This document shows, in pieces, positions 15,001 through 18,000 of a DNA stretch of 43,127 bases; the stretch's first letter is position 1; each line of letters starts with the position of its first letter. The DNA is from a virus (Duplodnaviria > Heunggongvirae > Uroviricota > Caudoviricetes): IMG/VR virus record IMGVR_UViG_2562617113_000019; one strand, 5' to 3'. A program made the position numbers.

Positions 15001-18000
15001 ATTACGGCATAAAAAGTAGCCAGATTCTTTACATCCACGGCAATGCATCCTTACCTGGAGATAAGCTTATTCTGGGACATGGTATTGAGCCGGAAAATTT
15101 CAAAGAGCTTCCTCAAAAACCGCCTAGGGACGTAACGGACGAAGAGCTGGAAGAGTGGTATCAGCACATGTCTGATAATTACGATATTGCATATGAAAGC
15201 GGAAAACAGACTCTGAATCGGTACTTTACCCATTCGTTCAAAAATACAGTGGAAGTGATGTCTGCAGACCAGGCATTTTTCTCTCAACTCAACGCGGTAA
15301 ACGAGGTGATCATTGTTGGACATTCTTTATCAGCGGTCGACATGCCTTACTTCGCTGCCATTAAACAACACGTCCAGCCTAATTCGACCTGGACAGCAAC
15401 ATGGTATCTTGAAAAAGAACGTAAACAACACCTACATGCGTTGCAGAGCATAGGCATTGAATACCCCCTGATTGTGCCCGTATGTAGCCTGCTGACACGG
15501 TCGTGACTACAACGAAATAGTGCTCGTCTAAGCAGGAGTGTTAGTTTAAATGGCGTTATGTCCGCCGTTCGCTCATATTGGACCTGAAGACACGCTGGTT
15601 GGTCCCCTTTGTACCAAAATAGATGTCATTACAGCGGTTAGTTTTGGGTGGTCAATCATACATTTGAATAACATTATTGCGTTTTTATCAACGGGAACAG
15701 TTCACTGTTATCAGGTAATGTGGAGTTAATGATTTTCATGTGGTAAATGTATTTTCATTACAACCATCCATTTCCTGTCCTAAAAGATAAAGCTATGAAT
15801 AGGTCAAACGAAGACGATATTGAAAAAACCAAATCACTGATTTCGACAGGTGCAGAGATAGCTGGTGCTGCAGTTGGCGGCGCAATTGGCTTTTTTGCAA
15901 CTGGCCCTTTGGGAGCTGCCGGGGCTGGTTCGTTAGGGGTGATTGTCGCGAAAGCTGGTACAAAACTTCTCAGTGATATGGCTGAGCGTGCGATGTCTGC
16001 ACGCGAAAAAGTCCGCGTTGGTGCAGCAGCAGCAGTTGCATTCGATAAAATTGAAAGGGCTGTTCTGTCAGGTAATGAACCCAGAAAAGATGGCTTCTTT
16101 AACTCTGAAGAAGGAAAGCGCAGTAATGCAGAAGAAATTCTGGAGGGAACGTTAAGAAGGGCGCGTGAAGAGTATGAGGAAAAGAAGATTCTCCTTCTAG
16201 GGAATTTTTATGCAAATATGGTCTACTCTCCGGGAGTGAGTACTGAAGAAGCTAATTACTATCTCCGGTTGTTCGATTCACTGACGTATCGGCAGCTCTG
16301 TATTATGAGTTTGATCATGATGAAACCGCACTATTCTGACTTTCAAAATCTCAGAAACCATGACTATAGAACCCAAAATGCCAACATGCAGGCAAGTACT
16401 GTAGCACTCCTCCAAGAAATTTATGCTCTGTATAATTTGGGATTAGTCTGCGTTAGGAGTGCAGGCGGAAATGGTTATGTAGCTTTGCTGGCATGGCATG
16501 ATATCATCCCTTTCGGATTAGAATTTACAGGGTTAGGTGAAAGGTTTTACAATCTTTTTATGGGGGGAGGAAGCTTTTCACTTCCCGATATTTCTACTAT
16601 CGCAGAAGCTTTGCGTTAAGAATGAACATTTCGATTCAAAGCTTCCATCCCCTGCTCATTAACCCAGGAGTTGTTAGACGCGAGTCCTCGTTGATAACAA
16701 TTATAAACTTCCGCTCCTCGCTCAGCGCGGACCTTCTGCCCAGTGAGCTAGTCCGCTACGAGCCAGAAGTGGAGCATGTAGTACTAATTATTAGAGAGTA
16801 AATCATTATGTATCGGATTGAATCTTGACTCACAGGTGGCACTATATTTCATATTGTAATTTGTGCACATATGCAGATGGTTACAGTTTTAGCTATGTTT
16901 TGTAATTTTAAAAATAAAATTCATTGCTTGTTTATTGATGTGTTTGTATTAAAGAATCCATTTTGTAGCCCTCTATAGAGGGCTCTACAAAGATAGTCAG
17001 TATTATTGTTACGAGTATCGTTTAAAGTCATATAAGCTAACAAGTCTTTTATAATCTGAGTATGACATTCCAAGGGAAACTCCTTCCCTCAAATATCCCT
17101 CGATATTATCAAGGTCAATATTGTTTACATATGTGTTGTAAAAAATAACTCGAACGAGTTTGTACGGTTTGAATCCGAGGGAAATGATTTCATCTACTGT
17201 GCCGTAGTTAATTCTTTCAGATTCATCAATAGAATTAAAATAGGTGGTAAGATTTGTTTCCTGATTCTTTTTAAGTTGCTCAATATTTTTTATTTCATTA
17301 CATATTGTGGAAAATCCATGCGCAGTAAAATACTGTGTTCGGGTTACTTTTATTTTATTCAATAACATGATTAGCGCATCATTTTTGGAATCCATGATTT
17401 CAAAATAATTCATAACCATTTCGGATGCTGATTGATAATGGTAAGTTATTTTCTGTATAGAGCCAACAGCCATGACTAGTTCGTCATTAGCTAAGTTATC
17501 TAAATCACCAACTATTTTTACTTTAACTGTACCACCTTCTTTTATTTTTCTCATTACTCCTTCAACCTTTCTAATATCCATAGATGATACTGGAAGTTTA
17601 AGGTTTATTAACTCCTCAAAAATCCCTTGAAAATTATCGGTTTTAATCTTATTGATTTTAATATTACCAATATTTTCGATAACCACATCATGTTCAAGCA
17701 CTTCAAGGGAATTGTTGTCTGCGTCTCGTTCAATGAGCAGAAAATTATTTCTAACCTTATTGGCCAAATTGGAATCTTTAGGAATATAAGAAAAAATTGT
17801 TTTCAGAATATCTCTGATATTCTCATCGCTTATGCTATAGCCGATAAATACAATAGGATTGTGAATAAACAAAGAAATGAGTTGGGCTCTAATTAAGTGA
17901 TTGTTGATTTTAAATCTTTCATAATCGGAATCTGAAATCACAATAGATTCAGGATGTGAAACGCAACCGTGTATTTTATATACAGATCCGTAAGGGTTAC

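What the first reader, a model, noticed from the sequence alone, without database searches (positions are those of the whole stretch)
15747..16619. Island cassette 3: glycine-zipper N-terminus fused to an unassigned C-terminal domain, a candidate membrane-acting effector
Residues ~20-60, GAEIAGAAVGGAIGFFATGPLGAAGAGSLGVIVAKAG, form a GxxxG-rich hydrophobic stretch of the type found in membrane-perturbing toxins and abortive-infection effectors.

The C-terminal part, ILLLGNFYANMVYSPGVSTEEANYYLRLFDSLTYRQLCIMSLI, faintly recalls the Abi-alpha/DUF4393 pattern (..LLANLLA.......F..IL..LS..EA.IL). That is only an impression.

The gene is convergent with the SIR2-like gene, so the two are probably independent units.
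Basis: inference. Interest (0 to 1): 0.55.

Follow-up and report, generated by a model that had tools for sequence, protein, structure and literature searches.

The report
Orphan glycine-zipper protein in defence island
A real, well-conserved 274-residue gene of a large uncharacterised bacterial family, with a glycine-zipper membrane hairpin in front of a new helical/winged-helix domain, sits as a self-contained cassette among anti-phage genes, so it is a good untested candidate for a new single-gene phage-defence protein; it is not a recognisable Abi-alpha.

Summary
The ORF is real, but its start is 15795 (274 aa), not 15747. It is under purifying selection (dN/dS 0.13-0.30). It belongs to a large unnamed family: 2,337 clusters at 50% identity, almost all 255-290 aa, with no Pfam, NCBIfam or PHROG assignment.

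The N-terminal glycine zipper is confirmed and is the most conserved part of the protein. It forms a small-residue ladder at residues 20/24/28/32/36/40/44/48 around a near-invariant G37-P38 turn.

The Abi-alpha resemblance is not supported. There was no PF14337 hit in 62 homologues, hhalign probability was at most 5.5%, and the two models share no structural neighbours. Only a weak colinear similarity in the winged-helix half remains.

The gene is an autonomous cassette (15558-16724) bounded by palindromic repeats. It occurs without AbiH or SIR2 in 60 other E. coli genomes, and no neighbour is conserved across about 36 loci. Known or candidate defence genes recur beside it.

Best reading (about 0.45, inferred): a stand-alone sensor-plus-membrane-effector defence protein.

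The parts
15557..15630 (+). Left cassette-boundary repeat. First palindromic unit TCCGCCGTTCGCTCATATTGGAC at 15561-15583; the second unit is degenerate.
   Evidence: Repeat family D3. The pattern gives 6 hits against 0.06 expected. Homology to the 60 other E. coli copies begins at 15558-15569.
15631..15794 (+). Upstream leader and presumed promoter that travels with the gene. It is non-coding.
   Evidence: It is 85-90% identical in E. coli and Cedecea alleles, no better conserved than the CDS. It contains a 1-nt indel and loss of the 15747 ATG in other alleles. There was no significant RNA fold (z = 0.38), no Rfam hit and no convincing sigma-70 match.
15795..16619 (+). Coding sequence, 274 aa plus stop (RefSeq WP_024201164.1, 'hypothetical protein').
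   Evidence: dN/dS is 0.13-0.30 against three other alleles.
15837..15950 (+). Glycine-zipper hairpin, residues 15-52: arm 1 (15-36), G37-P38 turn, arm 2 (39-52 and beyond). Includes a conserved acidic residue, E21.
   Evidence: Conservation table, hydropathy, and sub-threshold hits to DUF6861, C19orf12, Gly-zipper_Omp and DUF456 and to the PADLOC LeoBC model.
15951..16223 (+). Helical-bundle part of the core, residues 53-143. It carries most of the invariant charged residues (R65, R70, E71, R74, R97, D99, E114, E117, E126, E128, E129, K131) and the loop motif G-x3-R-x-D-G-F-F.
   Evidence: Alignment A1. AlphaFold helices 46-64, 69-91, 111-125 and 129-143 with pLDDT >= 90.
16224..16616 (+). 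Winged-helix-like C-terminal domain, residues 144-274. It has the L-T-Y-R-Q-L motif and a third helix without basic residues.
16701..16773 (+). Right cassette-boundary repeat with two palindromic units, at 16710-16732 and 16751-16773.
   Evidence: 73-nt repeat D1, shared with 14308-14380, and pattern hits. Homology to the other E. coli copies ends at 16724.

Best explanation
The gene encodes a stand-alone, single-protein anti-phage (abortive-infection or exclusion type) effector that belongs to a large, so far unnamed family.

Proposed working:
- The N-terminal small-residue zipper forms a helical hairpin (residues ~15-36, a Gly-Pro turn, ~39-55). The hairpin sits in, or can insert into, the inner membrane with both ends in the cytoplasm.
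- The cytoplasmic core is a helical bundle rich in invariant Arg/Glu residues plus a non-basic winged-helix domain. It acts as the sensing or regulatory part.
- On a phage cue, the core lets the zippers of several subunits pack together through their GxxxG faces. This makes the membrane leaky, so the infected cell loses membrane potential or lyses early and the phage fails to spread.

Shown here: the gene is real and under selection, the zipper is conserved, the fold is new, the gene is autonomous, and it repeatedly lies next to defence genes.

Inferred: membrane insertion, topology, oligomerisation, the trigger, and the defence phenotype itself.
For: Context in the window: the gene is one of four single-gene cassettes in a Rac-like lambdoid prophage hotspot. 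The other three are PD-T4-7 (6e-141), AbiH (3e-58) and SIR2/PDC-S25 (7e-143).

Context of relatives elsewhere:
- An IS-disrupted PDC-S06 lies beside it in an E. coli O111 island.
- Olokun OloA/OloB lie 3-6 kb upstream in Cedecea.
- PDC-M37A/B (Dodola-like) and a HEPN protein flank it on a Listeria plasmid.
- AbiTii and a resolvase are adjacent in L. booriae.
- Type I restriction-modification genes plus DUF4145 are adjacent in one metagenomic contig.
- Type III restriction-modification genes appear in two loci.
- In one prophage it lies 125 bp downstream of, and co-oriented with, the S24 repressor gene, the position of rexAB in lambda.

Autonomy:
- No large or small neighbouring ORF is conserved across loci.
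- The cassette moves alone.

Zipper:
- It is the most conserved segment, with a full i+4 ladder and a near-invariant GP turn. That argues for specific helix packing rather than a passive anchor.
- It resembles DUF6861 at sub-threshold level. DUF6861 is described as an integral-membrane glycine-zipper N-domain of polymorphic toxins (bioRxiv 10.1101/2022.08.23.504947).

Modularity: a Listeria branch keeps the core (hhalign 99.9%, 7.6e-36) but has a different N-terminus.

The distribution is patchy and spans many phyla.
Against: - There is no experimental evidence and no homology to any validated defence protein.
- Many family members sit among ordinary metabolic genes: Aeromonas between a LysR regulator and parC, Chromohalobacter, Anaerolineales, and a glycoside-hydrolase cluster. 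Only about 8 of roughly 36 loci examined have a recognised defence gene nearby. Most of the loci were scanned only two genes deep on each side.
- There is no match in 50,697 sequenced phage genomes.
- Hydrophobicity of the zipper is borderline for a transmembrane segment: 1.48 against the classical threshold of about 1.6.
- AlphaFold models the whole protein as one compact unit (pTM 0.88), so the zipper could simply pack against the core of a soluble protein.
- No TM or topology predictor was available.
Confidence: 0.45

Rival explanations
1. It is a very distant member of the Abi-alpha (DUF4393) superfamily and acts as Abi-alpha does, causing premature lysis of infected cells. In this reading a glycine zipper replaces the long N-terminal helix of Abi-alpha.
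For: - The size is the same (Abi-alpha of E. faecalis is 272 aa) and both are single prophage-borne genes (PMC6356687).
- The order of elements in the C-terminal two thirds of the two AlphaFold models is the same: two helices, then helix-helix-[insert]-helix-strand-[insert]-strand-helix.
- hhalign with relaxed settings gives a colinear alignment of 133-136 columns, P = 0.007-0.0075. The score of 22.8 exceeds all 150 column-shuffled controls, whose mean is 13.4 with sd 2.6.
Against: - No PF14337 hit at E <= 1 in the protein or in 62 homologues.
- hhalign probability is 0.8% by default and 5.5% at best. The reversed-sequence control already scores 17.2.
- The invariant Abi-alpha residues (P72, G78-P79, H114, D128, R183) have no conserved counterparts.
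- The nearest predicted viral structures of the two models do not overlap.
- The Listeria branch does not bridge the two families.
- Column shuffling destroys helical periodicity, so any two helical winged-helix families may beat that control.
Confidence: 0.12
2. It is a membrane-tethered accessory protein with no role in phage defence, for example an adaptor, a stress protein or a regulator held at the membrane. It rides in genomic islands only because it is a small mobile single-gene cassette.
For: - Many family members lie between housekeeping genes and look stably placed. The locus is the same in several Aeromonas species, and there are similar cases in Chromohalobacter, Anaerolineales and Planctomycetes-type contigs.
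- The immediate neighbours of 28 loci are mostly metabolic.
- The winged-helix domain has no basic recognition helix, which is typical of protein-binding winged helices.
Against: - Defence genes, IS elements, resolvases and prophage lysogeny modules recur next to it in unrelated phyla.
- The phyletic distribution is patchy.
- Simple anchors do not keep an invariant glycine ladder.
Confidence: 0.28
3. It is an interbacterial or addiction-type toxin. The glycine-zipper N-domain (DUF6861-like) would serve export or membrane entry, and the C-terminal domain would be the toxic part.
For: - 22 of 62 family members give weak hits to DUF6861 (best E 6e-4). DUF6861 is described as the N-terminal membrane domain of polymorphic toxins carrying Ntox15, TNT, EndoU and CdiA-CT tRNase domains.
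- One Listeria locus lies next to WXG100-like and TreTu toxin genes.
Against: - No conserved downstream immunity gene or small partner ORF was found in any of 27 loci.
- No secretion-system genes are nearby.
- The DUF6861 hits are below the gathering score (about 20 against 28 bits) and limited to the zipper.
- The Listeria copy next to toxin genes lacks the zipper.
Confidence: 0.07
4. It is the second component of a two-gene system with the upstream AbiH gene or the convergent SIR2 gene.
For: It is on the same strand as AbiH and 288 bp downstream of it. SIR2 effectors often have partner proteins.
Against: - The cassette occurs at 93% identity in 60 E. coli genomes with neither AbiH nor SIR2 beside it.
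- This AbiH allele is found in only one of 5,426 genomes.
- A boundary repeat separates each pair of genes.
- No AbiH or SIR2 neighbour appears in any other locus.
Confidence: 0.03

Closest known systems
Abi-alpha (Abi_alpha, PF14337, formerly DUF4393; EF2833 of E. faecalis V583 prophage 6)
   Same: - Both are single genes of about 270-285 residues carried by prophages or defence islands.
- Both have a helical N-terminal half followed by a winged-helix-like C-terminal domain, with the same order of secondary-structure elements.
- There is a weak colinear profile similarity, above a shuffle control.
- Abi-alpha's reported phenotype, premature lysis of infected cells (PMC6356687), is the kind of outcome a membrane-acting protein would give.
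   Different: - No HMM match and hhalign probability of at most 5.5%.
- The invariant residues differ.
- Abi-alpha has no glycine zipper. Its N-terminus is a disordered tail plus one 45-residue helix.
- Abi-alpha has an extra beta-hairpin and a helical insert inside the winged helix.
- The two models have no shared structural neighbours.
- Abi-alpha is mainly found in Firmicutes and Pasteurellaceae. This family is mainly in Proteobacteria and environmental phyla.
Glycine-zipper membrane modules (DUF6861 PF21724, Gly-zipper_Omp PF13488, YMGG PF13441, C19orf12 PF20721, Romo1, class IIc bacteriocins)
   Same: - It has a GxxxGxxxG ladder in a moderately hydrophobic Gly/Ala-rich stretch.
- Sub-threshold HMM hits recur across family members: DUF6861 in 22/62, C19orf12 in 12/62, DUF456 in 9/62 and Gly-zipper_Omp in 8/62.
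- Like DUF6861, the zipper sits at the N-terminus in front of a different functional domain.
   Different: - All hits are below Pfam gathering scores.
- The domain that follows the zipper is unrelated to anything fused to those modules.
- The ladder here is unusually long (seven to eight rungs) and is interrupted by a near-invariant Gly-Pro turn.
LeoBC of the Eleos (dynamin-like) defence system, PADLOC model PDLC03841
   Same: It is the only defence-library model that the protein touches: E 3e-5, 21 bits, protein residues 13-142 against model positions 447-552 of 601. The hit recurs in 11 of 62 homologues.
   Different: Only about 100 residues around the Gly/Ala-rich stretch match. There is no dynamin GTPase domain, no LeoA partner, and the protein is less than half the length. 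The match is most likely driven by composition.
Membrane-acting abortive-infection and exclusion proteins of prophages (lambda RexAB, lactococcal AbiZ, 2TM/SLATT effectors of CBASS and retrons)
   Same: The resemblance is functional only:
- It is prophage-borne.
- In one relative it lies next to the repressor gene, as rexAB does.
- It has a small predicted membrane hairpin that could depolarise the cell.
   Different: There is no sequence or fold relationship. Here the sensor and effector would be in a single 274-residue polypeptide, with no partner protein and no nucleotide-signal receptor domain.

Membership tests
Abi-alpha (Pfam PF14337 Abi_alpha / DUF4393) | Match to the PF14337 profile at or above the gathering score (29 bits) | tested here: not met
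   No hit at E <= 1 for the protein or for any of 62 homologues. The positive control, the phiNM1 protein at 8828-9685, scores 153.6 bits, E 8.8e-45.
Abi-alpha (Pfam PF14337 Abi_alpha / DUF4393) | Profile-profile homology to an alignment of true members | tested here: inconclusive
   - hhalign of A1 against A3 with default settings: probability 0.8%, E 0.068, 22 columns.
- C-terminal halves with -mact 0.05: 133-136 colinear columns, P 0.007-0.0075, probability 5.2-5.5%.
- The score of 22.8 compares with a column-shuffle null of 13.4 +/- 2.6 (0 of 150 reach it), but the reversed control scores 17.2.
Abi-alpha (Pfam PF14337 Abi_alpha / DUF4393) | Family-invariant residues (P72, G78-P79, F97, H114, D128, R183, G276, F279, C283 in the phiNM1 protein) | tested here: not met
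   The invariant columns of A3 have no conserved equivalents in A1. The invariant set of A1 is A26, G32, G48, E71, G76, G93, R97, F101, K131.
Abi-alpha (Pfam PF14337 Abi_alpha / DUF4393) | Same three-dimensional fold | tested here: inconclusive
   The secondary-structure order of the C-terminal two thirds is alike. The two models find different neighbours among predicted viral structures. Direct superposition was not possible with these tools.
Abi-alpha (Pfam PF14337 Abi_alpha / DUF4393) | Abortive-infection phenotype with premature lysis | not testable with these tools
   The phenotype is described for EF2833 in PMC6356687. It needs phage assays.
Glycine-zipper membrane domains (Pfam Gly-zipper families, DUF6861) | GxxxGxxxG motif in a hydrophobic stretch | tested here: met
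   G24-G28-G32 with a small-residue ladder at 20/24/28/32/36/40/44/48. The motif is present in 220 of 255 family proteins.
Glycine-zipper membrane domains (Pfam Gly-zipper families, DUF6861) | Profile match at or above the gathering score | tested here: not met
   The best family-wide E-values are 6e-4 (DUF6861), 0.037 (C19orf12) and 0.059 (Gly-zipper_Omp). The query itself scores 9-12 bits against cut-offs of 28-29.
Glycine-zipper membrane domains (Pfam Gly-zipper families, DUF6861) | Insertion into a membrane | not testable with these tools
   Only hydropathy could be computed: the 19-residue maximum is 1.48, which is borderline. No topology predictor was available.
Eleos LeoBC (PADLOC PDLC03841) | Dynamin-like GTPase protein of about 600 residues paired with LeoA | tested here: not met
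   Only model positions 447-552 are matched, at 21 bits. The protein has 274 residues, there is no GTPase domain in Pfam, and no LeoA neighbour.
Winged-helix (wHTH) structural class, C-terminal domain only | Three-helix bundle followed by a beta-hairpin wing | tested here: inconclusive
AbiH or SIR2 two-gene system | Conserved co-occurrence with the partner gene | tested here: not met
   60 E. coli genomes carry the cassette without either gene. No AbiH or SIR2 appears among neighbours elsewhere.

The most novel reading that the evidence does not exclude
This is the founding example of a new, widespread family (more than 2,300 clusters at 50% identity, in many bacterial phyla) of self-contained anti-phage proteins. 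A cytoplasmic helical/winged-helix sensor of a new fold would control an unusually long glycine-zipper hairpin that breaches the membrane.

In enterobacteria the gene travels as a single-gene cassette bounded by a palindromic linker repeat. That repeat would let defence cassettes swap between the lambdoid-prophage hotspot and CP4-type islands.
Probability: 0.35. Interest if true: 0.7.

Novelty: new variant of a known kind. Interest (0 to 1): 0.52.

Why it matters
If the cassette protects against phages, it would add a large unnamed protein family to the defence catalogue. Island-based screens missed this family because most of its members do not sit in dense defence islands.

It would also give a minimal, one-polypeptide model for how a sensor domain controls a glycine-zipper membrane effector. 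The zipper is conserved far better than a simple anchor, and the core has no solved structural relative, so both halves are open structural questions.

The boundary repeats offer a concrete handle on how single-gene defence cassettes are exchanged between prophages and chromosomal islands in E. coli.

If the protein gives no protection, the finding is still a well-defined uncharacterised family with a confident model that merits a domain entry.

Tried and rejected
- Abi-alpha membership: rejected as a family assignment after HMM, profile-profile and structural-neighbour tests.
- First guess for a true Abi_alpha control: the phiNM1 ORF at 1402-2334 turned out not to be DUF4393. The ORF at 8828-9685 is.
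- Sequence search of solved structures: only de novo helical bundles and chance hits, best E 0.0037.
- Conserved partner genes: no large ORF and no small ORF within 600 bp is shared beyond close relatives.
- Regulatory RNA or structured leader: no Rfam hit near the gene, and the leader folds no better than shuffles. My impression that the leader was better conserved than the CDS was wrong.
- Promoter and terminator scans: not above shuffle expectation.
- The boundary repeat does not fold better than shuffles as single-stranded DNA.
- Phage genome collection: no tblastn match.
- Literature: no paper cites the three RefSeq protein accessions, and none links glycine zippers to a comparable defence gene.
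- The single fusion protein, ADP-ribosylglycohydrolase plus this family (P0146), was not followed up. It may be a gene-calling fusion.
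Full report
**1. Where the window comes from**

The window is part of the chromosome of E. coli NADC1036 (NZ_CP076264.1; 100% match). It covers a Rac-like lambdoid prophage integrated next to ttcA, with intR/xisR, recET, kilR, a cI/cro-type switch, replication genes, lysis genes and terminase.

Between the replication module (a DUF977 gene) and hokD/sok plus the DUF1367-DUF1364-DUF1133 late-regulatory genes lies a low-GC stretch of GC 0.31-0.44. It holds four genes:
- 13092-14117 (+), PD-T4-7: PADLOC 6.4e-141.
- 14529-15506 (+), AbiH: Pfam 3.3e-58.
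- The target ORF.
- 17009-18517 (-), a SIR2 protein: Pfam SIR2_2 6e-24, PADLOC PDC-S25 6.7e-143.

**2. Checking the observation**

The ORF 15747-16619 and both quoted peptides are present.

The true start is 15795:
- All 62 aligned homologues begin within a few residues of that methionine.
- RefSeq residues in this and other genomes.
- In the other enterobacterial alleles the 15747 ATG reads AGG or ACG, and a 1-nt indel lies between the two ATGs.

The gene is under purifying selection, with dN/dS 0.13-0.30 against alleles from two E. coli islands and from Cedecea.

**3. The family**

A word-indexed search found 146 relatives, all called 'hypothetical' and none with a Pfam domain. They come from Dickeya, Shewanella, Aeromonas, Chromohalobacter, Pusillimonas, Roseovarius, Anaerolineales, Phycisphaerae, Cyanobium, Gemmatimonadota and many metagenomes.

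A profile search of 1.84 billion cluster representatives found 2,337 proteins at E <= 1e-3 and 1,182 at E <= 1e-30. Nearly all are 255-290 residues and match end to end. One 750-residue protein joins an ADP-ribosylglycohydrolase domain to a complete copy of the family.

The library scans gave no assignment:
- Pfam, NCBIfam and PHROGs give no significant assignment to the protein.
- Pfam gives none to any of the 62 homologues. Only sub-threshold hits to glycine-zipper families appear: DUF6861 in 22/62, C19orf12 in 12/62, DUF456 in 9/62 and Gly-zipper_Omp in 8/62.
- In PADLOC the only touch is a 21-bit match to about 100 positions of the LeoBC model. It recurs in 11 of 62 homologues and includes no GTPase domain.

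**4. Anatomy of the protein**

The zipper, residues 15-52:
- It is the best conserved segment, with mean column identity 0.73 against 0.37-0.64 for the rest.
- A26, G32 and G48 are invariant. G37-P38 is near-invariant in the middle. An acidic residue is conserved at position 21.
- Small residues sit at every fourth position from 20 to 48.
- 220 of 255 full-length relatives have GxxxGxxxG. The others keep a Ser/Thr/Ala-rich version with the central Gly-Pro.
- Hydropathy is moderate, with a 19-residue maximum of 1.48.

My reading, which is an inference, is a helical hairpin of two arms of about 20 residues around the GP turn. Lys/Arg are richer on the C-terminal flank, so both ends and the core would be cytoplasmic.

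The fold:
- AlphaFold with the 62-sequence alignment gives a confident single-unit model (pLDDT 92.2, pTM 0.88).
- After the zipper come helices 46-64, 69-91, 111-125 and 129-143, which carry most of the invariant charged residues and the loop motif G-x3-R-x-D-G-F-F.
- Then comes a winged-helix-like unit: H150-161, H165-176, H200-214, strands 218-221 and 242-244, and two final helices.
- The third helix of that unit has no basic residues. I therefore expect protein binding rather than DNA binding (inference).
- Foldseek against viral models and a sequence-profile search of PDB chains gave nothing significant.

A small Listeria branch keeps the core (hhalign 99.9%, E 7.6e-36 over residues 49-272) but has a different, zipper-less N-terminus. 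The zipper is therefore a replaceable module in front of the family-defining core.

**5. The Abi-alpha question**

Abi-alpha (EF2833, 272 residues, carried by an E. faecalis prophage, causes premature lysis) defines DUF4393/PF14337 (PMC6356687). I located a genuine member in phage phiNM1 (DQ530359, 8828-9685, PF14337 8.8e-45) and collected and aligned 54 relatives.

Results:
- hhalign of the two family alignments gives probability 0.8%.
- With relaxed settings on the C-terminal halves, a colinear alignment of 133-136 columns appears (P 0.007-0.0075, probability 5.2-5.5%).
- Its score of 22.8 exceeds all 150 column-shuffled controls (13.4 +/- 2.6), but a reversed control already reaches 17.2.
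- The AlphaFold model of Abi-alpha (pLDDT 86.6) has the same order of elements in its C-terminal part. It also has a 45-residue N-terminal helix instead of a zipper, and extra inserts.
- Its neighbours among viral models do not overlap with those of the target.

Conclusion: the protein is not a member by any test that could be run. A very distant shared ancestry of the winged-helix half cannot be excluded.

**6. Autonomy of the gene**

Sixty other complete E. coli genomes carry the gene at about 93% identity on a 1,167-bp segment, window 15558-16724, with different flanks. There it lies in the cargo region of CP4-type islands between 'inovirus Gp2/YagK' genes, without AbiH or SIR2.

Searches with the neighbouring cassettes confirm the limits. 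Other genomes match only from 15558-15569 onward on the left and only up to 16724 on the right.

Across about 36 non-redundant loci, no neighbouring protein family recurs. No small ORF within 600 bp is shared beyond close relatives.

**7. The boundary repeat**

The cassette limits coincide with copies of a repeat made of one or two palindromic units, GTCYGC-N11/12-GCGGAC. The repeat also sits between PD-T4-7 and AbiH (14308-14380) and beyond the 5' end of the SIR2 gene (18884-18910). The pattern gives 6 hits in the window against 0.06 expected.

Related copies occur in unannotated intergenic DNA of 434 of 5,426 E. coli genomes. Examples are the cargo of a Nissle 1917 island and the equivalent hotspot of an SE11 lambdoid prophage. 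The repeat does not fold better than shuffles as single-stranded DNA.

I read these as linker sequences at which cassettes are exchanged. That is an inference.

**8. Context as evidence for function**

Besides the three defence genes in the window, recognised or candidate defence genes lie next to relatives in unrelated lineages:
- An IS-disrupted PDC-S06 in an E. coli O111 island.
- Olokun OloA/OloB in Cedecea.
- PDC-M37A/B (Dodola-like) with a HEPN protein on a Listeria seeligeri plasmid.
- AbiTii and a resolvase in L. booriae.
- Type I restriction-modification genes, DUF4145 and a Y1 transposase in a metagenomic contig.
- Type III restriction-modification genes in two loci.

Other mobile-element contexts:
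- In one 6.2-Mb contig the gene lies 125 bp downstream of, and co-oriented with, the S24 repressor of a prophage. It faces away from the early lytic operon, which is the classical place of lysogen-expressed exclusion genes.
- In Roseovarius it lies at a prophage edge.
- In Pusillimonas it lies next to an IS element.

Against this, many copies sit among ordinary metabolic genes, and there is no copy in 50,697 sequenced phage genomes.

**9. Verdict**

The best explanation, at confidence about 0.45, is a stand-alone sensor-plus-membrane-effector defence protein of a new family. The main rival (about 0.28) is a membrane-tethered accessory protein unrelated to defence.

Nothing about membrane insertion, toxicity or protection has been shown. 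All three need the experiments listed under the next steps.

Noticed in passing
window 14308-14380, 15557-15630, 16701-16773, 18884-18910: A repeat of one or two palindromic units (GTCYGC-N11/12-GCGGAC, about 75 bp when double) sits in every gap between the four island genes and marks the exact limits of the target cassette. Related copies lie in unannotated intergenic DNA of 434 of 5,426 E. coli genomes, in CP4-type island cargo and in the same hotspot of other lambdoid prophages. It may be a linker for cassette exchange.
   Followed up: partly
window 14529-15506: At megablast level, this AbiH allele is found in only this one genome among 5,426 complete E. coli genomes. The SIR2/PDC-S25 cassette is found nearly full-length in 13 genomes.
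   Followed up: partly
window 21928-23179 and 24783-25917: The prophage carries two toxin-like gene pairs around its lysis cassette. RefSeq annotates them as a scabin-related ADP-ribosyltransferase with a subtilase-family AB5 binding subunit, and an enterotoxin A family protein with an 'enterotoxin' subunit.
   Followed up: no
window 19214-19628: A hok/sok locus lies just right of the island: Rfam sok at 19214-19389 with 105 bits, and hokD at 19384-19539. It is followed by a sub-threshold isrK-like match at 19548-19628, with 33 bits against a gathering score of 50.
   Followed up: no
window 7461-7950: The prophage's own superinfection-exclusion gene sieB is annotated as frameshifted.
   Followed up: no
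protein P0146 (750 aa, metagenomic): This is the only multidomain relative seen. An ADP-ribosylglycohydrolase domain (residues 24-358, 7e-39) is followed by a complete copy of the family, zipper included, at residues 489-750. It could be a real fusion or a gene-calling artefact.
   Followed up: no
L049 5863-6738 (Listeria seeligeri plasmid pLIS4) and relatives P0388-P0395: A small Listeria-only branch keeps the core domain but replaces the glycine zipper with an unrelated ~45-residue N-terminus. On the plasmid it lies between a Dodola-like PDC-M37A/B pair and a HEPN protein.
   Followed up: partly
L012 (contig JAEYLX010000008.1, labelled 'Bacillota bacterium' MAG): This 6.5-kb contig carries the E. 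coli island version of the cassette at 92% protein identity, with flanking genes matching those of the E. coli island in locus L002. It is probably an enterobacterial contig mis-binned into a Bacillota genome.
   Followed up: no
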